Part shown: positions 3,869-28,322 of the stretch, one piece after another
How the letters are laid out: each line of letters begins with the position of its first letter
How positions within the stretch are numbered: the stretch's first letter is position 1
IMG/VR virus record: IMGVR_UViG_3300033068_001704
Span: 96,001 to 160,000 of that record
Origin: a virus
Lineage: Duplodnaviria; Caudoviricetes
Reading direction: 5' to 3' (one strand)
DNA: 64,000 bases
Notes under the pieces: model-generated
Database searches by the model: none
Seen by the model: only the letters and a program-made list of their open reading frames with translations
Told to the model about the DNA's origin: nothing
Program-made: the position numbers and the translations under genes

Positions 3869-5041
3869 ATGACCGACCGCGACCTACGATCCAAGCTGAT
3901 CCGCCTCGCACACAAGAAGCCCGAGTTCCGTGGGGTTCTCCTCCCCATCCTTGATTCTCGGGTGGCCTCGAAGGACCTGAAGTCTCTCGTGGTGAAGATG
4001 GTGGCGAGTGCTGGGAAGAAGCTGAAGGCGTTCGCGGCTACAGTGCCGGTCGAGGCGTACCGAGAGGTCGGTGTCGTCAAGGCCACGGTGGAGTCCCCCC
4101 CTCCCCGAGGGGGCTACGGACCCTTCGAGAAGGGTGAGATCACGATCGGCAAGTATCTGATCAGCGTGACCGGAGACCACTCCAACGGCACTGTTACCAT
4201 TGGGGTTCGGGCTGGGGGCAGCTACGTCATGGAGAGCCTGTACTCCAAGGGTCCGGCAGCCGATGCCCCTGCCCGCCTCAAGAAAGTCCTGAGCACCATC
4301 GAGGGCCTCGTGTCTGCGAATGTGGGGAGGGTGATGGAGAAGGTCCCTCAGGCGACCTCGAACCCCATCGATTCCGTCGAAGACAAGCTGAAGTCGATGC
4401 GCCTTGGACCGGGTGGCCGGGTCCGCTCGGTCGAGCGGGACTCCCCCACTGAGTGGACCGTGGAGCCTACGAACCGGTTGCGCCTCGACCACTACAGTGG
4501 GGACGATGAGGACGGGTGGAACGAAGACGGGTGGCGAGAGGACTACGCAGACCCCGTCGAGATCGCTGCGCAAGGATGGCTGGAACAGGAATTCGGAGCG
4601 GGCCTGTTCGAGGTGACCGAAGTGGGGGAAAAGGGCCACGTCCACATCTCCCTCACCCCCAAGGGCAAGCAGACGCTCAAGGGGGCATCCCCGAAGGCAG
4701 CAGGGTTCGACGCGTCGGACTTCGACTGGCTGGGGGACCCTGAGGGGGAAGGGCCTCCCCCTAACGCCCAAGAGCGGGTCTATGCGTCACTTCGGCGCGG
4801 GGACCTCGTTCGGATCGACGGCAAGGGTCCCACGTTCCGGGTGACGCAATCCCAGGATGACCACGTCAAGATCCTCGCGAAGCACGACACGACCGGTCGC
4901 AACTACTACATCTCGAAGATCGTCAGCCGAGATCCGCTCCAGGTCGCAATCTACCAGGGTCAGGGGGGTGGGATGGGCCACAAGCCGAACCCTGTCGCCC
5001 GGCCTGGTGTCCCGAAGCTCGTCGGTCACGTGGACGAGTAG
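3869..5041 (+). CDS. Tagged putative internal virion protein (multi-segment)
   Basis: N-terminal LRSKLIRLAHKKPEFRGVLLPILDSRVAS closely matches the N-terminus of the 27984 ORF. Confidence 0.7.
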   Translation: MTDRDLRSKLIRLAHKKPEFRGVLLPILDSRVASKDLKSLVVKMVASAGKKLKAFAATVPVEAYREVGVVKATVESPPPRGGYGPFEKGEITIGKYLISVTGDHSNGTVTIGVRAGGSYVMESLYSKGPAADAPARLKKVLSTIEGLVSANVGRVMEKVPQATSNPIDSVEDKLKSMRLGPGGRVRSVERDSPTEWTVEPTNRLRLDHYSGDDEDGWNEDGWREDYADPVEIAAQGWLEQEFGAGLFEVTEVGEKGHVHISLTPKGKQTLKGASPKAAGFDASDFDWLGDPEGEGPPPNAQERVYASLRRGDLVRIDGKGPTFRVTQSQDDHVKILAKHDTTGRNYYISKIVSRDPLQVAIYQGQGGGMGHKPNPVARPGVPKLVGHVDE

Positions 5042-5084
5042 TTCGGTCTTCAGCCCCTTGGACCTCTATAAAACGTGAGGTGCT

Positions 5085-6770
5085 ATGGGACTCTGGGACG
5101 ACGCGGTCGTGGACATCGGGAAGTTCAACGCGCTCTATGCGCAGGTTGAACGGAAGCCCCACGACCAGGCGACCCTGAAGAAGGCCGTTTCGGGGTCCCT
5201 CAAGCTTCTGAGGGTGGCTGTTTGGGCGAGCAAGTGTCTCTCTCCGGAAGCCTATGCCCCTTACTCGGAGGCGAGACGGGGGGTTTCCCGTATCTCCAAG
5301 GATGCTGCCGCATCGGGGGAAGACCTCCGCTCCGCGCTGGACCGGCTCAAGGATGTCACGCAGCGTGTGATCGACAGCGCGGCCCCGGAGGACTTCACCT
5401 ACTCAGGGTTCCACATCTCGAACCCGGACCGGTTCTCTGACGAGCTGTGTCGGAAGACGCTGGAGGGGGTGGACTTCCTCGTCGGCCTCTTCAAGAAGCG
5501 GGGGATCTCGAATCTCCTCAAGCAGGCGGTCTCCAAGGTCAACCTCCTTCTCGACAGTGATGGGGCGTCGGCTTTCTTCCACTCCGGCAAGCGGGAGCTG
5601 ACGCTCAACGTCCCCGAGCTGTCGAAGGGGGCTCCTGGGAGGTTCATCGACACGTTCGTGGGGGAGACCGTCCTGCACGAGTTCGGTCACTACATCCACC
5701 GCAACTACATCAGGGGCGAGGCTGCGGATGTTTGGGACGACCCGTGGGAAGGCCTGTCCCAGGGCGACCCGAGGCTGGACGCCCTGGACATCGTCACAGA
5801 CTACGGCAAGAGCGACAAGTACGAGGACTTCGCCGAGACCTTCATGCTCTTCATGGCAGCTCCTGGGAAGCTGACCCCGACGGCGAAGTTCCGGATGCAG
5901 AGGGCTCTGTCGGTCTCCGGGCTCTACGGGAAGCCGGTCATCCGTCTCGCTGAACGAACGGCGGCTCGTCCGATCTACGTGGACAAGCAGGGGTTGAAGA
6001 CGTTCGTCCAGCAACAGTTGGTCCCTGACATTGAGAAATGGCTTCGGCGCCGTCCCAATCAGGCGGATCCGATTGGCTCGGTGAGGGGCATCGCCAAGGG
6101 TCGGGTTGAGGTCCTGGAAGCGGACGGCCGTCAGTCCCATTCTGTGGGGGTCATCGTCAACGCGAGACCGTCGAACGCGAAGGGCGTGGCTGTTCTTGGT
6201 GGAAGCGCTGGGAAAGAACAGATCGACATCTACATGAACGGGGCCCTCAGCCCCTCAGACTTCTTGGTTCCGACCCCTCAGACAGATCGCATGGCCCCAC
6301 TCTGGGAGTGCACCTACGAGACGTGCCTTCCGTACGGGCTGTACTCAATTCTCATCCACGAAGTCACCCATGCCGCCGATGTCTTCGTGAAGGGGCTCAA
6401 GTACAGCCCTTCTGATGTCCTCGAACGGGGAGAGGCAGCATGGGGCCCTTACGTCAACGATCCTAGCGAGGTCCGCGCTTTCATGCAGGAGATCGTGGAC
6501 CAGACGGAACGCATGGCGAGAAAGCTCCGTCCACATGCGAAGACGAATCGCCGTCTGGTGGACATGATCTTGAAGACCAGCACGACTTGGGGTCTGATCG
6601 AGAAGCACCTCAATCCCCGCAACAAGACCCGCATCCTCAAGGCTGTCTACGACAATCTCGATCGTGAGGGTCTTCTCCTTGAGGAACCCTCCCAGTCTCG
6701 TGTGGCAAGCGGGATCTTCGTGGCGTCTCGTTTTCTGGTGGGGGATGGGGGCAAGGTCGAAGTCGTCTGA
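5085..6770 (+). CDS. Tandem zincin metalloprotease-domain protein, tagged
   Basis: HEFGH plus TDYGKSDKYEDFAE; second HEVTH plus YVNDPSEVRAF; linker IRLAERTAA; C-terminal SRVASGIFVASRFL. Confidence 0.75.
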   Translation: MGLWDDAVVDIGKFNALYAQVERKPHDQATLKKAVSGSLKLLRVAVWASKCLSPEAYAPYSEARRGVSRISKDAAASGEDLRSALDRLKDVTQRVIDSAAPEDFTYSGFHISNPDRFSDELCRKTLEGVDFLVGLFKKRGISNLLKQAVSKVNLLLDSDGASAFFHSGKRELTLNVPELSKGAPGRFIDTFVGETVLHEFGHYIHRNYIRGEAADVWDDPWEGLSQGDPRLDALDIVTDYGKSDKYEDFAETFMLFMAAPGKLTPTAKFRMQRALSVSGLYGKPVIRLAERTAARPIYVDKQGLKTFVQQQLVPDIEKWLRRRPNQADPIGSVRGIAKGRVEVLEADGRQSHSVGVIVNARPSNAKGVAVLGGSAGKEQIDIYMNGALSPSDFLVPTPQTDRMAPLWECTYETCLPYGLYSILIHEVTHAADVFVKGLKYSPSDVLERGEAAWGPYVNDPSEVRAFMQEIVDQTERMARKLRPHAKTNRRLVDMILKTSTTWGLIEKHLNPRNKTRILKAVYDNLDREGLLLEEPSQSRVASGIFVASRFLVGDGGKVEVV

Positions 6771-6794
6771 CCGCCTGGGTGCGTAACATCTCGG

Positions 6795-7082
6795 ATGAAC
6801 GAGAACGCCACCGAGACGCCGGTTCAGGTAGGTCACCAAGATCTCCGCACGCTCCTGATCTGCTCGGTCAGGTACTCGATGGGGCGCATGACCTACATGC
6901 CGTCCTACGTTCAGGACCTTGTGAAGGTTCACGTGGGGGTTCTCAGCGCCCAGGACCTCAACCAGTTCGCCTCTGATGTCGAGGAGTGCTCGGACGCGCG
7001 GCTGGGGATGGACTTCGACGCGGCGGGGTGGCGTCGGTTTGCGGAATGGTGCCGGAAGAAGGCGACCGAAGCCGTCCGCTAG
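6795..7082 (+). CDS. Hypothetical phage protein
   Basis: CSVRYSMGRMTYMPS segment; starts 8 nt after GCGTAA. Confidence 0.7.
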   Translation: MNENATETPVQVGHQDLRTLLICSVRYSMGRMTYMPSYVQDLVKVHVGVLSAQDLNQFASDVEECSDARLGMDFDAAGWRRFAEWCRKKATEAVR

Positions 7083-7223
7083 CAACTCTATCCGCGTCGG
7101 CTGATAGCAGGGGGGTAGAAACCCTTCTGTCACCCGTTCCTTGTCCCGAAGGGCCCGGTTCATCGGGTCAGAAGAAGCGTAATGAACCGGGTTCAGCGTT
7201 CACGTGAGAGGAGCTGGAGAACA

Positions 7224-8729
7224 ATGAGAGCAAGTGTTTGGGGTTTCTTGTGTTTCGTGATGATCGGTTGTGTGGCCTCCGGCCCAGAGGCCGAGGTGAG
7301 TCTGGCGGAGCAGGATCTGCTCGGTGGGGCCAGCCTCGCATCTGTGGCGCGGGGGCGTGAGCTGTTTCGTCACGAGGCGATGGGCGGCAACGGTCGCACG
7401 TGTGAGTCCTGCCACACCACCGTCGAGCGCGCGATCGACGTCGGCTACCGGCGTGGTCGGCAGCTTGGGCTCAGCAAGCCGCAGGCTGCTCTCATGGGTC
7501 TCGACTTCGCGCAGCGCTTCGCCACGTTCGACCTCGCACCCGAGTTCGCTCGCGAGCTGTTCGCCCTCGACCCGAACGATGGGTTGTTCCGCACGATCGA
7601 TTCCGATGGGGGCAACAGCAACTCCTACGAGCTGGTTCAGCAGGGTCTCATCCGCATCCCGATGACGCTGCACCCGCGTGTGCAGGTGATCGGCTGTGGC
7701 GCACCGGGCTCGGACTGCGAAGTGCTGCCGAACGGTCAGCATCGAATCGTGGTTCTGCGGAGCCCGCCCACGACGCTGAACACCATCCTTCAGGAGGTCG
7801 ATGCGAACGCTCCGGGCCGCCCCGGCATGCTGATGTGGGACGCACGTGAGGTCGATGCGGTGACGCAGACCGGGAGCGCGTTCAACGATCACTTCGAGCG
7901 CACCGAGACGCCGACGCTCCAGCAGCTCGAAGACATCGCGGCCTTCGAACGCAACACTTTCACGGACCTGGCTTCTGCGTACTACGCGGTCACCGGGAAC
8001 GACCCCGGCCTTCCTCCGTGCACGACCCCGAGCGAGTGCCGCGGCCGGGAGTTCTTCATCGAACAGCCCATCCTCGCGAGTGACATGGCGCACCGTGGTC
8101 TCTGTGCGCAGTGTCACAGCGGACCTGCTCTCAACCGATCTGGCATCTTCCATCGCCTCCAGCCCCCGGTTCCCCCGGTCGGTTCGATCTGCCCCTGCCA
8201 GGACGGCAGCATGCCGGTCGCTGGGAACTGTGGGCTGTCGGTGCCGATGGAGGGCCCCATCGCAACGCCCATCGGGGCGATGTGCCTGCATCGCATCTCG
8301 GCGCCCAACGCGGACCCGCCGGGTCGCCCTGGGTTCATCGACCGCACCTTCGTCTGGGTGGATGTCCCCGGCTGGGGCACTCGCGTGATGCAGGGACACG
8401 ATCCTGGACGTGGTGGCATCACCGGCGACCCGTGCTCGGAGCTGTCGTCGCAGTGCCTCATCGCCAGTGCGAATCCCGCCGACCCCTCGCAGGGCGGTGG
8501 TGTCCTCGTTCCGATGTTCCGCATCGCCTCGCTTCGCGGAGCCGGCAGACGCACCCACTTCGATCACAGCAACATCGCGCTCACGCACCGTGAACAGGTG
8601 GACGACGTGGCGGATGGCTTCGCAGCGTTCGTCCCGCTGTTCCAGTCTCAAGGGGATCCGAACGCCACGGCGTTCCTGATGTCCGAGCAGGATCGCGAAG
8701 ACGTCGCGGCGTACCTGGGCCGCCTCTGA
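7224..8729 (+). CDS. Di-haem cytochrome c lipoprotein (CcP/MauG-like)
   Basis: Lipobox-like MIG-C; GRELF..GNGRTCESCH (7401-7415); RGREFF..CAQCH (8103-8117); LMWDAR; SLRG; GGAG SD before 7224. Confidence 0.8.
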   Translation: MRASVWGFLCFVMIGCVASGPEAEVSLAEQDLLGGASLASVARGRELFRHEAMGGNGRTCESCHTTVERAIDVGYRRGRQLGLSKPQAALMGLDFAQRFATFDLAPEFARELFALDPNDGLFRTIDSDGGNSNSYELVQQGLIRIPMTLHPRVQVIGCGAPGSDCEVLPNGQHRIVVLRSPPTTLNTILQEVDANAPGRPGMLMWDAREVDAVTQTGSAFNDHFERTETPTLQQLEDIAAFERNTFTDLASAYYAVTGNDPGLPPCTTPSECRGREFFIEQPILASDMAHRGLCAQCHSGPALNRSGIFHRLQPPVPPVGSICPCQDGSMPVAGNCGLSVPMEGPIATPIGAMCLHRISAPNADPPGRPGFIDRTFVWVDVPGWGTRVMQGHDPGRGGITGDPCSELSSQCLIASANPADPSQGGGVLVPMFRIASLRGAGRRTHFDHSNIALTHREQVDDVADGFAAFVPLFQSQGDPNATAFLMSEQDREDVAAYLGRL

Positions 8730-8747
8730 TCTCCCAACGGACCTAAC

Positions 8748-9839
8748 ATGGCATCCCCTTCCCGCGTCGCCTCTGAGTACCTGCATTCTCAGAGTGCGGC
8801 GCGGGTCGCGTCTAGGTTTCTGGTCTCGAAGACCTGGGGTTCAACCGAGAGGCTGATCGCGGACTACAGGTCGGCCCTGGGAATCTTCCGGGCCCATGTT
8901 GAAGAACAGCGCACCCGTACTGACGGAAGTCCGAACAACCTGCTTCTCGCCTACAAGCTCACCCCCGCGGTGAAGGCAGGGCGAGAGCTGGTGGAGTGGA
9001 TCGTTCAGACGCGTGCGATCCCGACCGCGAAGGCGAAGTCGATGGAGATGGCGGCACGGACGCTTGGTGCGATCCGGAAGTCGCCCCCCGACATCATCGC
9101 CTGGACCGACAAGAACGGCGCGAGGCTCGACTTCCTTCTGGAAGCAGCGACCTGGCCGGAGCGGTCTGCGGAGGGTGAGATCATCACTGTCGGTCCCCTC
9201 AAGGTCCACAACACGACCGGGGCGACCGAAAAGCAGTTCTCGGACATCCAGAAGCTCGTCGAGAGCACAGTCCGAATCATGACCTCGACGCTGGACTACA
9301 AGAAGGTCCTCTACGGGGACGTGTACGTCGTCGGGCAGCTCAAGCAGGCCACGACGGTCGCCTGGTACAACGTCAATGACGACGATGTCTACCTTCGGTC
9401 GATGGCGAAGAAGGGTGAAGACGACGTCCAGAACCTCATCCATGAGTTCGGGCATCGGTACTGGCACAAGGTCATGACCCCGACGGCCAAGAAGGCGATC
9501 GGGACGATCTACACCACGTTGAAGTACGTGGGTGGGGCGGAGAAGGTGGTGTACCCGAAGGTCGGGGACCCGCTTCCTATCCCGGTCAAGGGCCAGAAAG
9601 AGCGCCCGATCATCACTGGGTACAACGGGCTGTACTACACCCTCTCGACGGGTGGGGCCGCGAAGGTCTCCCAGGTCCACAAGATCCTGCAAGAGATCTC
9701 GATGGAGTCCCGGTTCCCGTCGCGGTACGCAGCGACCAGCATCGACGAGTTCTTCTCCGAATGCTTCTCGTTCTACGCCCTCGACCAGAAGCTCACCCCC
9801 AGGCTTCGCGAGCAGTTCGAGGAAGCGCTCCGAGCGTAG
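8748..9839 (+). CDS. Tagged zincin metalloprotease (lethal-factor-like signature)
   Basis: N-terminal SRVASEYL..ARVASRFL; HEFGH (9441-9455); SRYAATSIDEFFSECF. Confidence 0.75.
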   Translation: MASPSRVASEYLHSQSAARVASRFLVSKTWGSTERLIADYRSALGIFRAHVEEQRTRTDGSPNNLLLAYKLTPAVKAGRELVEWIVQTRAIPTAKAKSMEMAARTLGAIRKSPPDIIAWTDKNGARLDFLLEAATWPERSAEGEIITVGPLKVHNTTGATEKQFSDIQKLVESTVRIMTSTLDYKKVLYGDVYVVGQLKQATTVAWYNVNDDDVYLRSMAKKGEDDVQNLIHEFGHRYWHKVMTPTAKKAIGTIYTTLKYVGGAEKVVYPKVGDPLPIPVKGQKERPIITGYNGLYYTLSTGGAAKVSQVHKILQEISMESRFPSRYAATSIDEFFSECFSFYALDQKLTPRLREQFEEALRA

Positions 9840-9860
9840 GGTCCTCTCGGAGGTCCCCCT

Positions 9861-10073
9861 ATGTACAAGGTCCCGTTCCGGCAGGTCTACTGCCACACGT
9901 TCATCGACTGCCTGCGAAGCACCTTCTGGTGCCACGTTGTCACCCGTATCTTCCCCGGAGCGGCAGACCTCGCGTCTGACTCCCTGCGTGACTGCTACGC
10001 GGAGCGCCCCGACATGATGTACGAGCAGTACAAGCATGTCTGGGTCGGCAACGAGCACGCCCCGAAGGCCTGA
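9861..10073 (+). CDS. Hypothetical protein
   Basis: GGAGG SD 7 nt upstream. Confidence 0.55.
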   Translation: MYKVPFRQVYCHTFIDCLRSTFWCHVVTRIFPGAADLASDSLRDCYAERPDMMYEQYKHVWVGNEHAPKA

Positions 10074-10122
10074 TCTGGAGAGGACGGGTGGCCTTCGATG
10101 CCACCCGTCCTTCTCAAGGTGA

Positions 10123-10605: not shown

Positions 10606-10623
10606 TGCACTCCCCCCTCACGA

Positions 10624-10905
10624 TCAGTGTCTGATCGTGCAGTCCTTTAGCCATCCGCAACAGATCACGCCTTCCACCTCGCGGATCGAGGTGGATCCAT
10701 CGGGGTTGACGATGGTGCGACTGGCCGTCCAGTTGGATCCGAACGTGTCGCCTTCGGAGCACCCGAAGAACGCGACGCCCGTGACCTGAACGTTGTGGAA
10801 CCCCTCGTCCTCCAGGGCTTCGCGCGCTGTGTCTTCAGACACCGGGAGCGTGCAGGCCGTGAGGAGGGTCAGGGTCGAGGCGATGAGGAAGAGCTTCTTG
10901 GTCAT
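10624..10905 (-). CDS. Small Cys-rich lipoprotein
   Basis: MTKKLFLIASTLTLLTA-C lipobox; FGCSEGD...GVICCGWLKDCTIR. Confidence 0.8.
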   Translation of the reverse strand: MTKKLFLIASTLTLLTACTLPVSEDTAREALEDEGFHNVQVTGVAFFGCSEGDTFGSNWTASRTIVNPDGSTSIREVEGVICCGWLKDCTIRH

Positions 10906-19038: not shown

Positions 19039-19673
19039 AAGAGGTAGAGATCGTTTGCCTGGGAGATTCGGCCCACATTCCGGACCTCGGGCTGAAGTTG
19101 AGGCGAGGGGCGAAGGTCGCGGCCACGCTCACGATGGTGAGTGGGTCTCGTGATCTTGCCGAGCTGAAGCGTCTCGGGGTGGTGGCGGTGACAGAGTTGA
19201 AGGCTCAGGCGATCCGTCGGGACGCCCCGGTCGCTCAAATCCCTTCCCCCAAGAACCCCCCGCCCCCCCTCCCTGCTACGCGGCCGATGGCTCCGACCGT
19301 CCCGGATGAAACGGCCCATCTTCTGAGGGGGATCTTGGAGGAGATCAAGGGTCTGCGAGCAGACCTCAAGGCGCGACCTGTTCAGGAGGCACGTCCGGAG
19401 ATCGACCTCGGGCCCATGGTCTCGGCAATCCAGAGTGCCCTCAACCGTCCCGGGGTGGACTCGGGGCGACGGGTGGAGACCCGCCACGAAGTTGAGGCAG
19501 GTGACCTGAGCCGGGAGGAGCGGTTCATCCCGAGCGGTATCGTCTCAGGAAACCTCAAATCTGAGATCGCAACTCAAGATTCTTCTTCGGAGAACTCGGG
19601 CCTCGATGAGGCTGAGGCGCTTCTGAAGCAGGTTCGACGAGGTGCGAAAGATGCGAAGAAGAAGGCCGGGTAA
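19035..19673 (+). CDS. Hypothetical protein with Pro-rich linker and coiled coil
   Basis: ATGA overlap start (MKEVEIV); PSPKNPPPPLP; LRGILEEIKGLRADLK. Confidence 0.7.
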   Translation: MKEVEIVCLGDSAHIPDLGLKLRRGAKVAATLTMVSGSRDLAELKRLGVVAVTELKAQAIRRDAPVAQIPSPKNPPPPLPATRPMAPTVPDETAHLLRGILEEIKGLRADLKARPVQEARPEIDLGPMVSAIQSALNRPGVDSGRRVETRHEVEAGDLSREERFIPSGIVSGNLKSEIATQDSSSENSGLDEAEALLKQVRRGAKDAKKKAG

Positions 19674-19680
19674 CCTCGAC

Positions 19681-20715
19681 ATGGCGAAGAGCGACAGCAC
19701 CGACGAGAAGCGCACCGACGAGAAGATGGGTGTGGGACTCGACGTTGGGACGATGAATCTGGTGTCGGCACGCCGCACCCCGAAGGGTGTCGAGACGCGT
19801 CGGATGCGGGATGCGTTCCTTGATCTTCCCCCCGAGTCGAAGAAGATGCTGAAGCTCTCGGGCGTCAGCTACATCGATCGGGGGGATGAGATCCTCATCC
19901 TCGGAGACGCGGCTCTCGACACCGCGAACATCTTCGGTCGCGAGGCACGCCGACCGCTCTCGGGTGGTCTCGTCTCCTCGTCCGAGGTGGATTCGTTGGA
20001 GGTGCTGGGCCTCCTCATCCGCAACGTGCTCGGGGAGCCCAAGGAGAAGGGGGAGCACTGCTACTTCTCGGTGCCGGCAGCCCCGATCGATCTCGTGGGT
20101 CGGGACGTGGTCTACCACCGAGGTATCTTCGAGCGCATCGTGTCGGAGTGCGGGTACACCCCGACTTCCAGCAACGAGGCGATGGCGATCATCTACTCGG
20201 AGGCGGCGAAGGACAACTTCTCCGGCATCGCGATCTCGTTCGGTTCGGGCATGAGCAACGTCGCGCTCGCCGTGAACACGATCGAGGGCCTGACGTTCTC
20301 GGTCGGCCGTGGGGGTGACTGGATCGACTCAGGGGCGGCGAAGTCCCTCGGGTCCACTCAGGCACGCATCTGCTCGATCAAGGAGAAGGGCATCGACCTG
20401 AACGCCCCGGTGGGTCGTGACCAGGAGGCGCTCGCCTTCTACTACAAGAACCTCATCGAGTACGTGCTCGACCAGATCGCGGCGCAGTTCAAGTCCATCG
20501 AGGGCAAGTTCGCTCTGCCCAAGGCCATCCCGATCATCATCTCGGGTGGCACCTCGAAGGCGGGTGGGTTCACCGAGTTCTTCACCTCGGTCTTCGAGAA
20601 GAAGCGGAAGAAGTTCCCGATCGACGTGAGTGAGATCCGCGCAGCCAGCGACCCGCTCAACGCAGTGGCGAACGGACTGCTCGTTCAGGCGCTTCAGGAG
20701 TACACCGACGACTGA
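19681..20715 (+). CDS. Actin-superfamily ATPase (MreB/MamK/Alp-like)
   Basis: GLDVGT (phosphate 1), NEAMA (connect 1), SFGSG (phosphate 2), GGDWID, ISGGTS (adenosine), DPLNAVANG (connect 2). Confidence 0.9.
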   Translation: MAKSDSTDEKRTDEKMGVGLDVGTMNLVSARRTPKGVETRRMRDAFLDLPPESKKMLKLSGVSYIDRGDEILILGDAALDTANIFGREARRPLSGGLVSSSEVDSLEVLGLLIRNVLGEPKEKGEHCYFSVPAAPIDLVGRDVVYHRGIFERIVSECGYTPTSSNEAMAIIYSEAAKDNFSGIAISFGSGMSNVALAVNTIEGLTFSVGRGGDWIDSGAAKSLGSTQARICSIKEKGIDLNAPVGRDQEALAFYYKNLIEYVLDQIAAQFKSIEGKFALPKAIPIIISGGTSKAGGFTEFFTSVFEKKRKKFPIDVSEIRAASDPLNAVANGLLVQALQEYTDD

Positions 20716-21887: not shown

Positions 21888-21966
21888 CCGAGCCCTACGA
21901 AGCCGAATAGCGAACAGGGTTGATCGCTAGACCCTCTATATGACCGGGCTAGGGGCAGAGGCTCCT

Positions 21967-22437
21967 ATTCCGGTCTTTCGCTACCAGTGCTCGTCATGCG
22001 GGCTGAACTTCTCGGCTCGGGTCGCTTCGGCCACGAGTTCGGTGAAGTGCGGCTGTGGTGAAACGGTGGAGAGAGATCTCCCCCGTTCATTCTCCGTGAG
22101 CACCAAGGTGGCTGGAGACGGGATCTCGGCTCCCGCCACGGGGCTGTCGGGGCACGACTACGAGATTGACCGGATTGTTGGATCTGATGCCCAGACGAAG
22201 TGGGATCAGATCGCCGCCCGCCAGAAGGACAAGGTTCGGATGATCGAAGAGAGCGGAGCCACTGGCTTCGATCTCTCTCGGAATCCGGATGGTTCCTACC
22301 GAGTGATGAAGCCTGAGGAACGGGCTGCATCCGAACGGTCCCGCAACTTCCACTTCAAGATGCAAGACCGTCTTGAACAGGTAGTTCCGGCAGAGGTCCT
22401 CTACGGGCCCCGCAAAACTCCGCAGAAACAGGCCTAA
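21967..22437 (+). CDS. FmdB-like zinc-ribbon protein (possible ATT start; alternative ATG at 21940)
   Basis: (M)PVFRYQCSSCG..F...VKCGCG..VER matches the MPxYxYxCxxCG pattern. Confidence 0.75.
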   Translation: MPVFRYQCSSCGLNFSARVASATSSVKCGCGETVERDLPRSFSVSTKVAGDGISAPATGLSGHDYEIDRIVGSDAQTKWDQIAARQKDKVRMIEESGATGFDLSRNPDGSYRVMKPEERAASERSRNFHFKMQDRLEQVVPAEVLYGPRKTPQKQA

Positions 22438-22522
22438 CAACCTGTTTCTCTCCCGGCTCGCCTAGGGCGAACCGTGGTCAAGACCGACAGACATACGCAC
22501 GCATCTCCCGCGCTTTTCGTTT

Positions 22523-22544
22523 CCTCTCCGATAGCTCGGAGAGG
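22523..22544 (+). promoter_or_regulatory. Hairpin in the sheath gene leader
   Basis: CCTCTCCGA-TAGC-TCGGAGAGG, perfect 9-bp stem. Confidence 0.5.
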
Positions 22545-22579
22545 TTTGGAATTACCCCGTTCTCAGGAGCGCGCGAAAC

Positions 22580-25500
22580 ATGCCGAGTCTTCTCCGTGGA
22601 GGGTACGCCCCGCCGGGCGTCTACACCCAGACCTCTTTCGGCGTCCCGCCGTCCCCGACGCCGGTACCGCCCCGTATTCCCGTGTTCGTTGGCACGGGTG
22701 TCGAGATCCTCTCTCGATCGAACCTCCCGCTCGTTCGAGGTTCTTCCTCGACCATCGACCAGCAGGTCGTGGATGAAGACGAGGCGGGTCGCGCCGTCGT
22801 GAGTGTGTCCGGCAGTGGGCTGGTGACGCTCGGCGAGTTCGAGGGCACCCTCACTCGCTTCCAGGTCCGCAACTTCCCGATCGTCTCGGGGGCGGGCACT
22901 GGCACGGTCGCAACCGACGCCAGCGCGGTCTCGGTTCGCATCAACGGCCTCCCGGTCGTCGTGCTCGGTCTCGATGCCACCAAGGGCATCGTCGAGATCG
23001 CTCAGGCACCGTCGGCGAGCGACGTCGTGCGATGCACGTACTTCTTCGACCGCACCGACACCATCGCCACCGACGACCTGTCTGATCAGGTCACGGCAGA
23101 GGCAGCGGTCCTCAACGGCCTCGCGGGTCAGAGCTTCTCGTTCACCGCGGGTGTGAACGACGTGTTCCGCATCGCGGTGGACGGCCTCGCAGAGGTCGCG
23201 ATCGTTCTCCCCTCGTCCTCCCCTACGGTCTCGGCTGCGATCGTCGCGGCGACGCTGAGTGGAGCGGCGGGCATCGGGTCGCTCGTCGCCTCGACGTACG
23301 TGAACAACCTCGGGCTGGTGTGCCTTCGCCTGACTGCCGACAAGTCGATCCGCATCGGCACCGGCACGGCGAACACGACCCTCGGGTTCGTGCCGAACGC
23401 GCAGACCTCGCGCAACCGCGTGTTCTACACGTTCAACGGTCCGATCGTGGACGGATCGGGGGGTGGTGTCACGACCACCAACCCGTCGGATGTCGTCGTC
23501 CTCGTGGACAACGTCCAGGTCATCCCGACCTCGGTCAACGGGTCGAACCGGTCGGTGACGCTCCCCTACGCCCCGGCGATGGGCTCGAAGGTCACGGTCC
23601 GCTACTCCCACAACTCGTGGCAGGACACGTTCGACTACCTCGCGAACATCGGCGTGACGCGCATCACGCGCACCGCGCTCACTCCCGAGGGCTCGACGGC
23701 CGGCACGTTCATCCAGGGCGTCTCGTACGTCCTGAAGGACGACGCGATCGTCTGGGGAACGTCGGCGCTCGTCTCGGCCGGCACCCACACCGAGGGCGGG
23801 GAGATCTTCGGGACTTCCCAGATCTCGGCGATGCTGGTGGACAACCAGGCCTTCCTCGCGCCGTGCTCCAGCACGACTGACACCAGTGGCTCGGTCTCGA
23901 TCGAGAGCCGGACGGTCTTCCAGCTCCCGTTCCAGCCGACGACCGGCAACGGCCGTGGCAACCCGCTCGGGTCGGACTACCTGACGATCTCGAACGGTCG
24001 GATGGACCTTCCGACCACCCGCCCGGACCTGATCACGGCGTACTGGGGCTTCGGCGTCCAGGATGCACTCACCCGCGGCCCGGTGACGGTCCTCAAGGTG
24101 GACAGCGACACGTCGCGGATCACGCTCGCATCGAGCGTTCCGGATGGCGCCGAGGTCTTCGCGACCTTCTACTACAACACGCTCGTCGATCAGGCGAACG
24201 TCGGGTCCAGCTCGGGCTACGAGATCTCCTCGCTGCTCGCTGGCCCCGGTGGCATGGGCACCTTCCAGATCGCGGACGGCGAGGGCAACTCGCTCTACGG
24301 GGTCTCGCTCACCGGCAAGGGCTCGGACCTCGCGACGGTGGACGTGGTCTTCCCGAGCGGTTCGGAGTTCTTCCCCGACGCGCGCATCGAGGGCGGTGAG
24401 GCGGTCGAGGAGACCGTCACGGTCGAGTTCGCAACGTCGGATGCGACCCCCGCGCGGTTCGTGAACCTCGGGCCGGCTCCGTACTACACGATCGACAACA
24501 CGTCGGACCGCCTCCGGGTGACGTTCGATGCGTCGGCTTCGCAGACCGGCGTCGCAGGTGGTGTCGATCTCTCGTCCCCGACGGGTGCGACGCGCGCAGG
24601 TGCCTTCGCTCACCTTCTCGGTGAAGAGATCGCGTACGAGGCGGACTCGGGCCAGACGACGTTCGACCTCACCTCGGGTGTGGACGACACCGTCAACTTC
24701 GTGGTGGACGGCGTGCCGCTCTCGGCTTCGACCGGCACCGTGTCCAGCGCAACGGCCGCGACCTTCGTCGCAGCGATCAACGCAGAGGCGATGGAAGCGG
24801 GCAACGAGCCCCGCTACGACGCGGCGGGTGTCTTCACCGGCATCACCATCGCGGTGAACGAGTACGACCAGCTCACGATGCACTACACCGGTTCGACCGG
24901 GGGTGCCTCGGGCAACCAGGCGATCACGATCGCTCCGGGAACCTACGCCTCGGTCGGTTCGCTCGTCACGCAGATCAACACGCAGCTCTCGACGATCAAC
25001 GGCCCGGTCGGTGGTCTCGGCGGTGAAGTGACCTGCTCGGCGCTCTCGTCGGGTCGGCTGCGCTTCTCGCTCATGACGGAGCGCGCAAGCAGCGTCCTGA
25101 CCTTCGTGTCGAACCCGCTCAACGCCACGACGGCCACGATCGGTGGGAAGGTCTACACCTTCCAGACCGTGCTGACCGACGTGGACGGCAACGTCCTGAT
25201 CGGGGCGGCGGCAACCAACACGCTCGACAACCTGATCGCGGCGATCACGCTCGGCGCCGGTGCTGGCACCACCTACGCGACATCGACGACCCTTCACCCC
25301 ACCGTCACGGCGGCAGCGGGTGCGGGCGACACGATGCGGGCAACCGCGAAGTCCGCCGGGACGGCAGGCAACGCCATCACCACCACGACGACCGTGGCGG
25401 GTGCAACCTGGACGGGCGCGACGCTCGCCGGGGCGGACGAGGCCGGCTACCTGGAGTTCATCACGAACGCCAGCGCGGCCCGTGACTTCGCCATCCTCGC

Positions 25501-27886
25501 AGGCATCGACACCGACTCGGCCGCGGGCGGAAACCAGTCGAAGCTCTACCAGGGCCCGATCGCTCGCCGCTTCACGGTGGCAACGACCGGTGGGCGCCTC
25601 GCCTACGACCGCATCCTCCTCCGCAACCGCCTCTTCCCGGGTGGAAGCTCGGTCGCACACGAGAACGTGCTCTCGCAGGCTGGGATCACCCTCCAGGGTG
25701 GTACCGGCGCCGCGAAGGCAGGTCTCCTCGGTGGTGTGACCGGAGAGGCTGTGTTCGGGGCGAACGTGAAGGCTCCCTCGATCTTCGCGCAGACCGGATG
25801 GTCGAGCGGACAGGTGGCGGCGCTGACCTTCGGGGATGCACGCGACAGCCAGCCGCTGGTCACGTTCTACGACGGGTCCGACCCGTCGAACCCGGCGAAC
25901 GATCTCCTGACCTTCACGGCAGGCGGGTCCCTCGTCACAACGGTCTTCACGGCTTCGAGCAGCGGGACGGACACCGCGCTCGGCCCGGTCACCGAGGCTG
26001 ACTCGGTCCTCGGGCAGATCAACGCGGCGATCGTCGCGGCGGGTCTCTCGGCGGTCGTGAGTGTGCGCCAGGAGGGTGCGGGCTTCCGCATCGTCGGTGG
26101 TGGCGTCGGCCCGACCGGCAACCTGACCATCGGGGCGGGTTCGGCGAACGACACCCTCGGTCTGTCCGAGGATGACACGGCGGCACCGGTGCCGGTCTCG
26201 GCGAAGCAGATGGCGAGCGCCCTCATGGGTCACGCTCAGGCGCCTGGTTCGTTCTCGACGGCGATGCTCGACTACGACACGCCCGACGCGAGCTACTTCG
26301 CGGGGCGAGCGCTCGCATGGGTCGCGACTGATTCGACTGGCAACGAGTTCCTCTACCTCCAGAGCCAGACGCTCGGGACCTCGTCCAGCATCGACTTCCA
26401 GGATGCGACCTCGAACAACGCCTTCGTGACCGGGACCCAGCTCCTGATCACGGCGGATGACGGGGCATCGGGAGAGGCCACCACGGACGGCTTCTTCGTC
26501 GTCAGCTCGAACCCGAGCGCGGGCTCCGGCTCGGCGAACACCTCGGTGTTCAACGCCGGTGTGGGTCAGGACGGCGTCGTCGGCCAGACCTACATGGACG
26601 ACGTCTCGGGCCTGACGTTCACCATCCTGCCCCGTGATGGCGGGATCCCGTACCCGACGGGTGCGAACGCGACCCTGTCGTTCCGCGTCTCGAAGACCTT
26701 CCTGACCGATGGCAACATCCCGACCCTCGCGGTCCCGGGCATCGAGCTGACGGTGACGAACACCTCGGGCGTCGCGACGGGTGACACCGCCTTCGTCGAG
26801 ACCTTCAAGAAGTCCGGCGCGGAGCCGAGCATCGGGCAGGTCTACTACGTCTCGTACGACTACGAGAAGCAGAACTTCTCCCCGAAGCTCTTCTCGAAGC
26901 TGTCGGACGTCGTCGCCGAGTACGGGCCGGTGAGCACGGACAACCCGCTCTCGCTCGCGGCCTACATCGCCTTCCTGAACGGGTCGAGCGTCATCGGTAC
27001 CTACCAGGTGCGGAAGGCGACCAACTCGTCCCAGGCGAGCGCGCAGGCGTACCTCGACGCGCTGGTCGAGCTGGAGGGCGCCTCGCTCCCCGGCAACATC
27101 AACCCGACGGTGCTCGCCCTGCTGACCCCGGCGACTGCGGACCTCGCGAAGCAGACCGCGATCCACTGCGACATCCAGTCGTCCATCCGGTACCGCGCAG
27201 AGCGGACGGCGGTCTTCGGATACGCATCGGGCACGCAGCCGGCGCAGGCGGGTCTCATCTCGCAGGCGGCAGGTTCGACGCGCGTCCGGTTCGTCTACCC
27301 GGACATCGCGACCCTCACCCTCACCGACGTCCTCGGGAACTCCCGTGAGTCCCTCGTGGACGGTCGGTACATCGCGGCGGCGGTCGCTGCGAACACGACG
27401 GCTCCGAGCATCGACTCGGCAACCCCCTGGACGGGTCGCCTCCTGTCGGGCTTCACGTCCCTCGGACGTCGGCTCGATGCGGTGGCAGCCAACCAGGTCG
27501 CGGCTCGCGGCGTGACCGTGGTCGAGGATCGCCTGCCCTTCCTTCGGATCCGGCACGGCCTCACCTCGGACATGACCAACGTCCTGACCAAGACGCCGAC
27601 GGTCATCCAGATCGCCGACGACATGCAGCGTCGGGCGCGTGCGGTTCTCGACCCCTTCATCGGTGTCAAGTTCCTCCCGCAGATCCTCGGTCAGATCGAG
27701 GGTCAGCTCAGCGAGATGTTCAAGCGCGCTGTGCAGGAGCAGATCATCACCTCCTTCACGGGCATCAGCGTCGCTGTCGATCCCGAGGATCCGACCGCGG
27801 TTCTGGTCGAGGCGTACTACGTCCCGGTCTTCCCGCTGCTCTACATCCAGCTCTCGTTCCGAGTCTCGGCCCAGTCGAGCTTCTGA
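22580..27886 (+). CDS. Contractile tail sheath protein with very large insertion
   Basis: N-terminal YAPPGVYTQ, P..PVFVG; C-terminal YG..NPLSLAA, IRHGLT, V...Y.PVFPLLYI; lies upstream of the tube. Confidence 0.92.
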   Translation: MPSLLRGGYAPPGVYTQTSFGVPPSPTPVPPRIPVFVGTGVEILSRSNLPLVRGSSSTIDQQVVDEDEAGRAVVSVSGSGLVTLGEFEGTLTRFQVRNFPIVSGAGTGTVATDASAVSVRINGLPVVVLGLDATKGIVEIAQAPSASDVVRCTYFFDRTDTIATDDLSDQVTAEAAVLNGLAGQSFSFTAGVNDVFRIAVDGLAEVAIVLPSSSPTVSAAIVAATLSGAAGIGSLVASTYVNNLGLVCLRLTADKSIRIGTGTANTTLGFVPNAQTSRNRVFYTFNGPIVDGSGGGVTTTNPSDVVVLVDNVQVIPTSVNGSNRSVTLPYAPAMGSKVTVRYSHNSWQDTFDYLANIGVTRITRTALTPEGSTAGTFIQGVSYVLKDDAIVWGTSALVSAGTHTEGGEIFGTSQISAMLVDNQAFLAPCSSTTDTSGSVSIESRTVFQLPFQPTTGNGRGNPLGSDYLTISNGRMDLPTTRPDLITAYWGFGVQDALTRGPVTVLKVDSDTSRITLASSVPDGAEVFATFYYNTLVDQANVGSSSGYEISSLLAGPGGMGTFQIADGEGNSLYGVSLTGKGSDLATVDVVFPSGSEFFPDARIEGGEAVEETVTVEFATSDATPARFVNLGPAPYYTIDNTSDRLRVTFDASASQTGVAGGVDLSSPTGATRAGAFAHLLGEEIAYEADSGQTTFDLTSGVDDTVNFVVDGVPLSASTGTVSSATAATFVAAINAEAMEAGNEPRYDAAGVFTGITIAVNEYDQLTMHYTGSTGGASGNQAITIAPGTYASVGSLVTQINTQLSTINGPVGGLGGEVTCSALSSGRLRFSLMTERASSVLTFVSNPLNATTATIGGKVYTFQTVLTDVDGNVLIGAAATNTLDNLIAAITLGAGAGTTYATSTTLHPTVTAAAGAGDTMRATAKSAGTAGNAITTTTTVAGATWTGATLAGADEAGYLEFITNASAARDFAILAGIDTDSAAGGNQSKLYQGPIARRFTVATTGGRLAYDRILLRNRLFPGGSSVAHENVLSQAGITLQGGTGAAKAGLLGGVTGEAVFGANVKAPSIFAQTGWSSGQVAALTFGDARDSQPLVTFYDGSDPSNPANDLLTFTAGGSLVTTVFTASSSGTDTALGPVTEADSVLGQINAAIVAAGLSAVVSVRQEGAGFRIVGGGVGPTGNLTIGAGSANDTLGLSEDDTAAPVPVSAKQMASALMGHAQAPGSFSTAMLDYDTPDASYFAGRALAWVATDSTGNEFLYLQSQTLGTSSSIDFQDATSNNAFVTGTQLLITADDGASGEATTDGFFVVSSNPSAGSGSANTSVFNAGVGQDGVVGQTYMDDVSGLTFTILPRDGGIPYPTGANATLSFRVSKTFLTDGNIPTLAVPGIELTVTNTSGVATGDTAFVETFKKSGAEPSIGQVYYVSYDYEKQNFSPKLFSKLSDVVAEYGPVSTDNPLSLAAYIAFLNGSSVIGTYQVRKATNSSQASAQAYLDALVELEGASLPGNINPTVLALLTPATADLAKQTAIHCDIQSSIRYRAERTAVFGYASGTQPAQAGLISQAAGSTRVRFVYPDIATLTLTDVLGNSRESLVDGRYIAAAVAANTTAPSIDSATPWTGRLLSGFTSLGRRLDAVAANQVAARGVTVVEDRLPFLRIRHGLTSDMTNVLTKTPTVIQIADDMQRRARAVLDPFIGVKFLPQILGQIEGQLSEMFKRAVQEQIITSFTGISVAVDPEDPTAVLVEAYYVPVFPLLYIQLSFRVSAQSSF

Positions 27887-27926
27887 TCTGAGCTGATAGC
27901 TCACCCGCGAGCGCGGGAGGAGTTCG

Positions 27927-27962
27927 GAGCCGCTCACGGAAACGTGGGCGGCTCTTTTCTTC
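27927..27962 (+). terminator. Intrinsic terminator after the sheath gene
   Basis: GAGCCGCTCACG-GAAA-CGTGGGCGGCTC-TTTTCTT. Confidence 0.85.
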
Positions 27963-27983
27963 TATATGGATGTGATTCGTGAG

Positions 27984-28322
27984 ATGGCGTCACTCAGAGC
28001 CCAAACAATCCGACTCGCACACGCGAAGCCGGAACTCCGTCCACATCTTCTCCCGCTCCTCAAGAGCGCGAAGATGCCTTGGGGTGGAGGCTCTGACGTC
28101 AACTGGGCGGAGATCGCAATGGTGGAACGCCACCGCCTCACGAGACGAGTCCGAGACCTGAAGAAGGCCGTCAGCACACTGCAAGAAGTGACGACGATCA
28201 TTCGGTCAGCGCCGGACGCTTCAGGGGATGAACTCCTGTTTGCGATGTCGCTCTTGAAGGCGGTCAACGAATCCATCCGAGCGATTCACCGCGACATCAA
28301 GGATGTACTTGGAATTCCCTGA
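27984..28322 (+). CDS. Tagged putative internal virion protein
   Basis: MASLRAQTIRLAHAKPELRPHLLPLLKSA followed by a helical segment; own TTCTATA element. Confidence 0.7.
   Translation: MASLRAQTIRLAHAKPELRPHLLPLLKSAKMPWGGGSDVNWAEIAMVERHRLTRRVRDLKKAVSTLQEVTTIIRSAPDASGDELLFAMSLLKAVNESIRAIHRDIKDVLGIP

What the first reader, a model, noticed from the sequence alone, without database searches (positions are those of the whole stretch)
3869..28070. Shared peptide tags on unrelated cargo proteins: candidate capsid-loading and maturation system
Seen: two unrelated ORFs 24 kb apart begin almost identically, LRSKLIRLAHKKPEFRGVLLPILDSRVAS (3884-3970) and LRAQTIRLAHAKPELRPHLLPLLKSA (27993-28070). A second motif recurs as SRVASEYL..ARVASRFL (8748-8822) and SRVASGIFVASRFL (6696-6737). 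Similar (R/K)xA junctions fall at domain boundaries: IRLAERTAA (5940-5966), PKAA in the 3869 ORF, RRTAA at the 58607 start and PRFAA in UvrD. Established: T4 internal proteins carry a cleaved capsid-targeting sequence, and phiKZ-like head proteins are cut by the prohead protease at short motifs. Inference: this is a modular tag plus (R/K)xA cleavage code that loads interchangeable cargo into the head for injection.
Basis: partly seen in the sequence, partly recalled or inferred. Interest (0 to 1): 0.9.

Follow-up and report, generated by a model that had tools for sequence, protein, structure and literature searches.

The report
Portable phage tag with cut sites
A giant uncultured phage puts the same 24-residue two-helix peptide on the ends of eight unrelated proteins (two in this window). 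Where the tag meets its protein there is a short Lys/Arg-x-Ala signal that also crowds the phage's head-building proteins. It therefore looks like an address label with a built-in cutting site for loading proteins into the virus head, but no loading or cutting has been measured.

Summary
Both peptide motifs are real at the stated coordinates. The two-helix tag (LRxxLIRLAHxxPELRxxLLPLLK) starts the ORFs at 3869 and 27984. The 222-kb genome holds eight copies, always at a protein end, and 3,652 protein clusters in public data carry it. Codons are scrambled, so the peptide itself is under selection. RVAxR[FY] is a second portable motif.

Bare (R/K)xA is everywhere (741 copies, about 685 expected) and proves nothing. 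The sharper form [KRH]-x-A-[S/A/G] does:
- It lies on the cargo side of the tag, after N-terminal tags and before C-terminal or internal ones, in 62-79% of about 600 junctions against 4-9% of controls.
- It is strongly enriched in the scaffold-like protein and other head-region proteins, here and in five relatives.
- It is positionally conserved in disordered linkers of 118 homologues of the head protease, whose fold matches herpesvirus assemblin and T4 gp21.

Most likely this is a head-docking tag removed by the prohead protease. The tag's binding partner, the packaging and the cutting are all inferred.

This scan has already described the tag (same genome and others) and the Lys-x-Ala code on other DNA. 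I found neither in the literature.

The parts
3869..5041 (+). Tagged cargo gene 1 (390 aa): N-terminal two-helix tag, then SRVAS, a body of unknown fold, and an extra C-terminal domain
   Evidence: The AF2 model has helices at 3-16 and 18-58, a well-modelled body at 70-270 and disorder at 273-296. Homologues carry the two-helix tag, an RVAxRY-type start, or no tag.
3884..3955 (+). Two-helix tag core, copy 1 (24 aa)
   Evidence: (E 1.5e-14)
3956..3970 (+). SRVAS directly after the tag. It fits both the [KR]xA|[SAG] junction signal and a half-copy of the RVAxR[FY] motif.
4679..4705 (+). KGA|S-P-KAA|G junction before the extra C-terminal domain
   Evidence: All full-length homologues end just before it. 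It lies in the predicted disordered segment 273-296.
5085..6770 (+). Two-zincin fusion protein (HEFGH at 5676-5690, HEVTH at 6357-6371) ending in RVAS..VASRFL
   Evidence: Domain 1 is weakly homologous to the C-terminally tagged zincin at genome 17752-19068 (E 5e-5). Domain 2 has a standalone orthologue in L055 (E 1e-66) that ends in RIASRYARRLL plus a two-helix tag.
5952..5969 (+). ERTA|AR junction between the two zincin domains
   Evidence: The standalone L055 orthologue starts M-RHRQAA-RPI exactly here.
6696..6737 (+). C-terminal SRVASGIFVASRFL (RVAxR[FY]-type motif, doubled)
8748..9839 (+). Zincin-like protein (HEFGH at 9441-9455) with the RVAS motif twice at its N-terminus
   Evidence: A homologue (E 3e-47) lies inside the head module of L098, just upstream of the head polyprotein gene.
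8760..8822 (+). SRVASEYL...ARVASRFL, N-terminal doubled motif
   Evidence: The probable orthologue in L063 keeps SRVASRYLL near its start.
27984..28322 (+). Tagged cargo gene 2 (112 aa, helical, unknown function)
   Evidence: The orthologues in L047 and L022 also carry the N-terminal tag.
27993..28064 (+). Two-helix tag core, copy 2 (24 aa)
   Evidence: (E 1.8e-14)
28062..28073 (+). KSA-K junction after tag 2 (K29-x-A31 of the tag profile)

Best explanation
The 24-residue helix-Pro-helix peptide is a portable docking module. It attaches otherwise unrelated proteins to a conserved component inside the assembling phage head. That component is either the acidic scaffold core or the inner face of the unusually conserved capsid protein; I could not tell which.

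Wherever the chain continues beyond the tag, the junction carries [K/R/H]-x-Ala followed by Ser, Ala or Gly. I read this as the cutting site of the phage's own head-maturation protease, which has the assemblin/T4 gp21 fold. Cutting after Ala would release the cargo from its anchor once the shell is closed. This parallels T4, which removes the capsid-targeting sequence of its internal proteins, and herpesviruses, which cut the capsid-binding tail off their scaffold.

RVAxR[FY] is a second portable helix, used at the same kinds of position.

Shown: portability, position at protein ends, selection on the peptide, the mirror-image placement of the junction signal, its enrichment and positional conservation in head proteins, the protease fold, and tag swapping on orthologous cargo.

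Inferred: binding to the head, cleavage, packaging and injection.
For: 1. Eight terminal copies in the genome and none elsewhere. 3,652 clusters in 1.84 billion proteins carry the tag. 110 distinct tags came from this genome, LR745208.1 and 71 IMG/VR loci: 96 classed N-terminal (a start codon within 12 residues upstream), 9 C-terminal, 5 internal.

2. After N-terminal or internal tags, K29 is 59%, A31 57% and A/G32 52%, then composition returns to background. [KRH]xA occurs within 6 residues in 79/100 junctions against 4/100 controls.

3. In 343 tags of 150 multi-tag proteins the upstream consensus is K(-4) x A(-2) S(-1). [KRH]xA occurs in 62% upstream and 71% downstream, against 8.7% of controls. 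C-terminal tags simply stop after K29, and N-terminal ones start M-[ST]-[DNT]. The signal therefore belongs to the junction, not to the tag's fold.

4. Against per-protein shuffles, the top of the proteome is the scaffold-like protein at 63155 (19 sites against 3.3, z 9.5), then 48114, 46721, the protease 61664, window ORF 29232 and 61049. Five of the top six lie in the 46-64 kb head region.

5. This was replicated in four relatives (scaffold-like z 5.5-7.5 in three, no homologue found in the most distant; 60474 family z 3.4-6 in three; protease z 0.6-3.8; TerL at or below expectation, portal too except in the most distant relative). It also holds in cultured Tunturi_5 (gp328 14 against 3.7, gp332 9 against 2.6).

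6. Sites are positionally conserved. The MCP N-terminus has KTA[SA]-x3-[KR]LAA in 5/5 genomes and in Tunturi_5. In 118 protease homologues, [VI]R[VT]A|[ASG] occurs at residue 25 in 93%, and [KR][AK]A|[SAG] at residue 297 in 83%, the latter inside an otherwise unconserved, gapped linker. Both sites lie in segments with pLDDT below 50 that flank the catalytic domain.

7. Protease fold: Z 10.4 to varicella-zoster virus protease (rmsd 2.4 over 113 residues) and Z 9.5 to T4 gp21, 5jbl (rmsd 3.0 over 127). Herpesvirus proteases cut at x-x-A|S/T, and their M-site cut frees the scaffold from the capsid protein (PMC4498786).

8. Link between tag and head: the core of head-module gene 60474 (FMKGEFTQxE) sits between two-helix tags in P0013 (E 2e-10) and in the L049 ORF. 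In other phages the same core is fused to the head polyprotein.

9. Tag swapping: homologues of the 3869 body carry the two-helix tag, an RVAxRY-type start, or nothing. The L055 orthologue of zincin domain 2 carries both motifs.
Against: No proteomic, structural or binding data exist for any tagged protein, and no cut at such a site has been measured. The two papers I read on the cultured relatives report none.

Tagged genes are scattered over the genome (3, 4, 12, 18, 74, 75, 100 and 124 kb) rather than grouped with head genes.

The scaffold-like protein is a low-complexity Lys/Ala/Glu repeat. Composition-only shuffles overstate its z-score.

Lys-x-Ala-Ala could partly be helix-capping or linker composition.

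The cultured relatives that keep the code (Tunturi_5, phage G) gave no tag match, so tag and code are separable.

AF2 models helix 2 of the 3869 tag as running on through SRVAS. That would make this particular site poorly accessible unless it unfolds.
Confidence: 0.55

Rival explanations
1. The tag docks proteins to some other conserved hub that has nothing to do with the head. Candidates are a replication or assembly compartment, the membrane, or the phage's actin-like (Volactin-family) filament.
For: Tagged genes are not clustered with head genes. The window encodes a Volactin-family protein (PF25216, E 3e-76). The partner is unidentified. Cargo bodies have no recognisable fold.
Against: The core of a head-module protein (60474 family) is the body between tags in P0013 and L049. 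The junction signal is the same as the one enriched and conserved in scaffold-like, protease and MCP N-terminal sequences.
Confidence: 0.15
2. The tag is a self-associating helical hairpin. Tagged and multi-tag proteins would then form the scaffold network themselves by tag-tag bundling, not as passive cargo bound to a separate receptor.
For: The 150 best-scoring proteins all carry 2-5 tags joined by acidic linkers and look like scaffolds. Some small proteins have a tag at each end.
Against: This genome has only single-tag proteins, including enzymes (a zincin at genome 17752-19068). Tags from different genomes are as alike as tags within one genome (0.67-0.70), which fits a fixed partner at least as well. 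This rival still places the tag inside the head.
Confidence: 0.12
3. The [KR]-x-A-[SAG] signal is not a cleavage site. It would be linker or helix-cap composition typical of Lys/Ala-rich disordered head proteins, and the tags would stay on their proteins.
For: The bare motif is ubiquitous. The scaffold-like protein is repetitive. Ser at -1 is a normal helix N-cap. AF2 puts SRVAS of the 3869 protein inside a helix. No cut has been measured.
Against: The signal is absent from N-terminal tag starts and C-terminal tag ends, and present only where the chain continues. It is a conserved three-residue island in an otherwise unconserved, gapped linker of 118 proteases. It is conserved in AT-rich, Ala-poor phage G gp19. 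Its P1' preference is the same at tag junctions and at protease linkers.
Confidence: 0.2
4. The tag is a degradation or timing signal (degron) read by a cellular or phage protease or unfoldase.
For: It sits at protein ends and is portable. Huge phages often encode Clp-type proteases (phage G does).
Against: A 24-residue, strongly conserved amphipathic two-helix module is unlike known short degrons. It occurs up to five times within scaffold-like proteins and internally between domains. No Clp-type gene turned up among the window and head-region proteins that I scanned.
Confidence: 0.04

Closest known systems
Phage T4 capsid-targeting sequence (CTS) of the internal proteins, removed by prohead protease gp21 (PMC3012670)
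   Same: A short conserved leader on otherwise diverse proteins directs them into the scaffolding core and can carry foreign proteins. It ends at the head protease's cutting site. The protease has the same fold (Z 9.5 to 5jbl).
   Different: The T4 CTS is N-terminal only, about 10-20 residues, and ends in (L/I)-x-Glu (own knowledge). This tag is a 24-residue two-helix module used at the N-terminus, the C-terminus or internally. Its predicted cut is after Ala. There is no sequence similarity.
Herpesvirus assemblin with its R-site and M-site (PMC4498786)
   Same: Same protease fold (Z 10.4 to varicella-zoster virus protease). Cutting occurs after Ala before Ser or Thr. The M-site cut removes the short capsid-binding tail of the scaffold, and the protease releases itself at a linker site. 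Both match the predicted 25 and 297 sites here.
   Different: Herpesvirus sites have Val/Leu-x-Ala without a required basic P3. Only the scaffold and the protease carry the capsid-binding tail, not a fleet of unrelated cargo.
Giant phage SPN3US/phiKZ prohead protease gp245 and its processed head and ejection proteins (PMC10052503)
   Same: In a jumbo phage, many head proteins lose N-terminal propeptides (some only 20-24 residues) at one short motif. The protease removes its own C-terminal part. Propeptides are suspected targeting signals.
   Different: The motif there is A-x-E, cutting after Glu. No shared portable tag sequence has been described.
P22 scaffolding protein C-terminal helix-turn-helix coat-binding domain, and the HK97 protease C-terminal targeting tail (own knowledge, not checked here)
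   Same: A small basic helical hairpin or tail is sufficient to bring a protein into the procapsid. It is used in engineering to load foreign cargo.
   Different: These occur on one dedicated protein per phage, are not spread over many cargo genes, and are not flanked by cleavage sites.
Encapsulin cargo-loading peptides (own knowledge)
   Same: Short terminal peptides, at either end, load unrelated enzymes into an HK97-fold shell.
   Different: They are about 10-residue extended peptides that are not removed by proteolysis. No sequence or predicted structural similarity.

Membership tests
T4-type capsid-targeting sequence system | Conserved leader shared by otherwise unrelated proteins of one phage | tested here: met
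   8 proteins share the tag. Their bodies are otherwise unrelated, apart from one weak zincin similarity to a non-tagged protein.
T4-type capsid-targeting sequence system | Leader ends at the head protease's consensus site | tested here: inconclusive
   [KRH]xA[SAG] occurs at 62-79% of junctions, and the same motif is enriched and conserved in head proteins. Cleavage itself is unmeasured.
T4-type capsid-targeting sequence system | Tagged proteins are packaged in the virion and the leader suffices for packaging | not testable with these tools
   No cultured tag-bearing phage was found among 50,697 phage records. No proteomics are available.
T4-type capsid-targeting sequence system | Sequence homology to the T4 CTS, N-terminal position only | tested here: not met
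   The tag also occurs at C-termini and internally. No Pfam or PHROG family matches the tagged proteins.
Assemblin / T4 gp21-fold capsid maturation protease (MEROPS S21/S77) | Fold of the catalytic domain | tested here: met
   AF2 domain 35-255 has high pLDDT. VIA Z is 10.4, 10.3 and 9.5 to varicella-zoster, pseudorabies and T4 gp21 proteases. phrog_18299 matches at E 9e-12.
Assemblin / T4 gp21-fold capsid maturation protease (MEROPS S21/S77) | Conserved catalytic His and Ser | tested here: inconclusive
   Invariant H130, S181 and H165 in 45 homologues are candidates. I did not superpose them on the known triads.
Assemblin / T4 gp21-fold capsid maturation protease (MEROPS S21/S77) | Gene placed in the head module next to scaffold and MCP | tested here: met
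   Gene order is portal, polyprotein, 60474, 61049, protease, scaffold-like, 64709, MCP. Relatives keep the same order.
Assemblin / T4 gp21-fold capsid maturation protease (MEROPS S21/S77) | Cleavage specificity (after Ala as in S21, after Glu as in S77) | not testable with these tools
   After-Ala cutting is predicted from conserved linker motifs. No enzymology exists.
P22-type scaffold coat-binding helix-turn-helix | Helical hairpin that binds the coat protein | tested here: inconclusive
   Helix 3-16, a break at Pro18 and a second helix were modelled. No complex could be modelled with the tools at hand.

The most novel reading that the evidence does not exclude
Huge phages run a general plug-and-play addressing system. 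A position-independent two-helix module (N-terminal, C-terminal or between domains) is bracketed by excision sites for an Ala-specific head protease. Any protein, or string of proteins, can then be loaded into the capsid and released as free cargo for injection. The system would be spread over thousands of protein families, with a cargo set that turns over almost completely between related phages (87 of 101 tagged bodies from relatives have no homologue here).
Probability: 0.4. Interest if true: 0.85.

Novelty: new variant of a known kind. Interest (0 to 1): 0.68.

Why it matters
If the model is right, huge phages carry a readable address code. From sequence alone one could then list which of their many unknown proteins travel inside the capsid and enter the host first. 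Here that list includes three zincin-type proteases, and in the head polyprotein noted earlier in this scan (e1-5658117) a topoisomerase and an ADP-ribosyltransferase-like domain.

It would also give a head protease of the T4 gp21 fold a herpesvirus-like after-Ala specificity, extending the link between phage and herpesvirus maturation from fold to substrate rule.

In practice, a 24-residue tag that works at either end, with a defined release site, would be a ready tool for loading foreign proteins into phage capsids.

The cleavage code is directly testable in a cultured relative, Tunturiibacter phage Tunturi_5.

Tried and rejected
I used the search for related loci instead.
- Pfam, PHROGs and NCBIfam gave nothing for any tagged protein or for the scaffold-like protein.
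- PDB sequence searches with the protease, alone and as a 45-sequence profile, gave only chance hits. The fold was recognised only from the model.
- The body of the 3869 protein has no convincing structural neighbour (Foldseek best E 0.016 to unrelated Mediator chains; Atlas TM 0.33 or less).
- No paper contains the string IRLAH in a relevant sense, and none links huge phages with capsid targeting.
- Cultured relatives by MCP similarity (phage G, Tunturi_5) gave no tag match at E up to 10. The tool warns that an empty answer is weak.
- The phage G and Tunturi papers report no cleavage sites.
- I dropped the idea that RVAS is simply the cleavage motif. In relatives the residue after Ala in RVAxR[FY] is often R, H, M or Q, so it is a separate helix motif that only sometimes coincides with the site.
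- I considered a phylogenetic-profile or co-variation test between tags and MCP to find the partner. I did not run it, because all head genes co-vary with phylogeny and it would not discriminate.
- Chance and recent DNA duplication are rejected.


Full report
**Setting.** The window is bases 96,001-160,000 of a single 222,154-bp contig with 63% G+C. It encodes SNF2 and UvrD helicases, giant structural proteins, a muramidase-bearing protein and a Volactin-family actin-like protein. The head module lies at about 46-66 kb of the genome: TerL 51464, portal 54008, a 1394-aa polyprotein 56196-60380, small proteins 60474 and 61049, the head-maturation protease 61664-63142, an acidic scaffold-like protein 63155-64453, protein 64709, and a 291-aa HK97-type capsid protein (MCP) 65418-66293. 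The closest records are uncultured huge phages of 250-485 kb, including LR745208.1, with MCPs 93-96% identical. The genome is probably incomplete.

**The observation: the tag.** A profile of the 24-residue core finds eight copies in the six-frame translation (E 1e-15 to 6e-13) and nothing else better than E 0.8. Five are at N-termini and three at C-termini. In an all-against-all short BLAST of my 242-protein gene set, the tag accounts for every one of the 28 possible pairs and dominates the list of short shared segments. At conserved residues only 43% of codons are identical. The peptide is therefore kept by selection, not by recent copying.

**The observation: the second motif.** It is also real. 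RV[AVI]xR[YWF] occurs 4 times against 0.09 expected, and VA[SA]R[FYW] 6 times against 0.36. In 998 ORFs from relatives' loci it occurs 12 times against 0.97. It sits at N-termini, C-termini and domain joints, and is often doubled.

**The observation: bare (R/K)xA.** By contrast, this occurs 741 times against about 685 expected. As written, it cannot mark anything.

**Spread of the tag.**
- LR745208.1 carries 11 copies.
- A strict core pattern pulled 71 loci from IMG/VR.
- A profile search of 1.84 billion representative proteins gave 3,652 clusters at E up to 1e-3.
- In the 110 distinct tags from loci, 96 are classed N-terminal (a start codon within 12 residues upstream; most begin M-[ST]-[DNT]-LR), 9 are C-terminal and 5 internal. 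Tagged genes often stand in tandem arrays.
- The 150 best-scoring representatives are multi-tag proteins with 2-5 tags joined by acidic linkers.
- Tags from different genomes are as alike as tags within one genome (0.67-0.70 identity). This points to a partner that hardly changes; the MCP is by far the most conserved head protein.
- No cultured phage among 50,697 records carries the tag at tblastn level.
- I found no paper that describes it.

**The junction signal.**
- After N-terminal and internal tags, the last tag residue is Lys in 59%, the residue two further on is Ala in 57%, and the next is Ala or Gly in 52%. After that, composition is background. [KRH]xA lies within six residues in 79 of 100 junctions, against 4 of 100 control windows from the same proteins.
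- In the independent multi-tag set (343 tags), the residues before internal and C-terminal tags read K(-4)-x-A(-2)-S(-1). [KRH]xA is present upstream in 62% and downstream in 71%, against 8.7% of control windows.
- C-terminal tags simply end after the last Lys, and N-terminal tags start straight after Met plus one to four residues.
- The signal is therefore not part of the tag's fold. It appears only on the side where polypeptide continues, in mirror image at the two ends. That is what one expects of an excision site.
- The IMG/VR set was retrieved with a core-only pattern, and the seed alignment has no K-x-A-S upstream. Selection bias therefore does not explain it.

**The same signal in head proteins.**
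- Shuffling each protein's residues puts these at the top of the proteome for [KRH]xA[SAG]: the scaffold-like protein (19 sites against 3.3), 48114, 46721, the protease, window ORF 29232 and 61049. Five of the six lie in the head region.
- The enrichment recurs in four related phages, although these proteins are only 38-64% identical. Scaffold-like z is 5.5-7.5 in three of them; no scaffold-like homologue was found in the most distant one. The 60474 family reaches z 3.4-6 in three, the 48114 family z 2.5-5.8, and the protease z 0.6-3.8. TerL is at or below expectation, and so is portal except in the most distant relative (3 sites against 1.1).
- Sites are positionally conserved: two in the MCP N-terminus, three in 60474, one in 55781.
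- In 118 protease homologues, [VI]-R-[VT]-A followed by A, S or G is present at residue 25 in 93%. [KR]-[AK]-A followed by S, A or G is present at residue 297 in 83%. The latter is the only conserved feature of a gapped, variable linker.
- In the AlphaFold model (45-sequence alignment, mean pLDDT 75.6), residues 1-31 and 284-334 are disordered and flank a confident catalytic domain. A confident C-terminal helical domain follows.
- The catalytic domain aligns with varicella-zoster virus protease (Z 10.4), pseudorabies virus protease (Z 10.3) and T4 gp21 (Z 9.5).
- Herpesvirus proteases cut after Ala (YLQA|T, VQA|S), release themselves at a linker site, and free the scaffold from the capsid protein by cutting off its C-terminal tail (PMC4498786).
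- The studied jumbo-phage protease gp245 of SPN3US cuts after A-x-E and removes short and long propeptides, including its own (PMC10052503). An after-Ala rule would be new for a phage enzyme of this fold.
- The code outlives the tag. Cultured Tunturiibacter phage Tunturi_5 (MCP 48% identical) has the same double MCP site, protease-linker sites, and two heavily marked head proteins. Phage G gp19 has four sites despite its Ala-poor composition. Neither gave a tag match.

**Links between tag and head.**
- The core of head gene 60474 (IG..VPGP...FMKGEFTQxE) is the body between tags in representative P0013 (E 2e-10).
- It is also the body of a 140-residue IMG/VR protein that has a tag at each end and a KFA|S site before the second tag.
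- In other phages the same core is fused to the C-terminus of the head polyprotein.
- The window's RVAS-tagged zincin (8748-9839) has a homologue (E 3e-47) just upstream of the head polyprotein gene in the head module of a 372-kb phage.

- Homologues of the 3869 body carry the two-helix tag (P0274, P0278), an RVAxRY-type start (P0275, P0277, P0281), or none (P0276, P0280).
- All full-length homologues (P0274-P0278) end just before the window protein's KGA|S-P-KAA|G. That segment lies in a disordered stretch ahead of an extra domain.
- The 5085 protein is a fusion. Its first zincin domain resembles the C-terminally tagged zincin at genome 17752-19068.
- Its second domain has a standalone orthologue in L055 (E 1e-66). 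That orthologue starts exactly at the window's ERTA|A-RPI joint and ends with RIASRYARRLL followed by a two-helix tag.
RRTAA and PRFAA, in replication-type genes, cannot be assessed.
- Cargo turns over fast: 87 of 101 tagged bodies from other phages have no homologue here.

**Interpretation.** The best reading is a head-docking tag excised by the prohead protease, analogous to the T4 capsid-targeting sequence (PMC3012670), with a herpesvirus-like cleavage rule. My confidence in each step is:

| Step | Confidence |
|---|---|
| Portable docking module under selection | about 0.9 |
| Junction signal is a protease site | about 0.65 |
| Destination is the head | about 0.6 |
| The whole chain | about 0.55 |

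The partner is unknown. The basic, amphipathic tag could bind the acidic scaffold core, as the T4 CTS does. Alternatively, given its strict hydrophobic face and cross-genome constancy, it could bind a folded conserved surface such as the MCP. RVAxR[FY] is a separate portable helix: the residue after Ala is often not S, A or G.

**Relation to earlier scan notes.** The tag was already reported for another window of this genome (e1-5658104) and for other genomes. The RVxxR helix was reported in e1-5754078 and e1-5650374. A Lys-x-Ala head-protease code was reported in e1-5802162, e1-5854297, e1-5339913 and e1-5810137. My tests agree with them. This report adds:
- the mirror-image placement of the code at tag junctions;
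- its conservation in the protease linkers;
- the two validated junctions in this window;
- the 60474-core link;
- a cultured phage in which the code can be tested.

Noticed in passing
window 19642-20715 (+): A full-length Volactin-family actin-like protein (PF25216, E 3e-76) encoded by a huge phage. LR745208.1 has a 70% identical copy and LR756511.1 a 32% identical one.
   Followed up: partly
window 7182-8729 (+): Weak sub-threshold haem-c type matches (CCP_MauG, DUF1924, Cytochrome_C7) at residues 53-83, in a gene wedged between the tagged zincin genes. An earlier scan note calls it a di-haem lipoprotein.
   Followed up: no
P0003, P0013; L027 and L042 (just after their N-terminal tags): A further portable mini-motif, GCEKLPEG.MRDNC.KK (two Cys nine residues apart), recurs next to two-helix tags in several phages. 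It is not present in this genome's tagged proteins.
   Followed up: no
P0005 residues 58-73 against genome 65418-66293 (MCP residues 25-40): A multi-tag scaffold-like protein contains TQPLRQRRDY, almost identical to the MCP segment that follows the two predicted cut sites (E 9e-4 for the pair). It may be a mimic or partner of the MCP N-arm.
   Followed up: partly
genome 61664-63142, protease residues about 465-480: The conserved C-terminal helix of the protease (..RTLARLAYLLEE; relatives ..IRLASLL..) resembles helix 1 of the tag (LIRLAH). It is not significant with the tag profile.
   Followed up: no
P0253, P0257 (protease homologues): Some homologues of the head protease carry Hint/intein domains (PF07591, PF14890), so the protease gene is interrupted by inteins in some phages.
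   Followed up: no
genome 65418-66293 against L093, L094, L096: The MCP is 93-96% identical between phages whose terminase, portal and protease are only 54-76% identical. This is unusually strong constraint on the capsid protein.
   Followed up: partly
window 29232-30428 (+): This 398-aa protein of unknown function, outside the head module, is among the six proteins most enriched in [KRH]xA[SAG] (5 sites against 1.4 expected).
   Followed up: no
L026, L048, L056 (IMG/VR loci): Tagged genes stand in tandem arrays of four or five consecutive small genes, each starting with the tag.
   Followed up: no
window 48056-49342 (-): An RCC1-repeat beta-propeller protein (PF25390, E 1.5e-66) lies among giant structural genes.
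   Followed up: no
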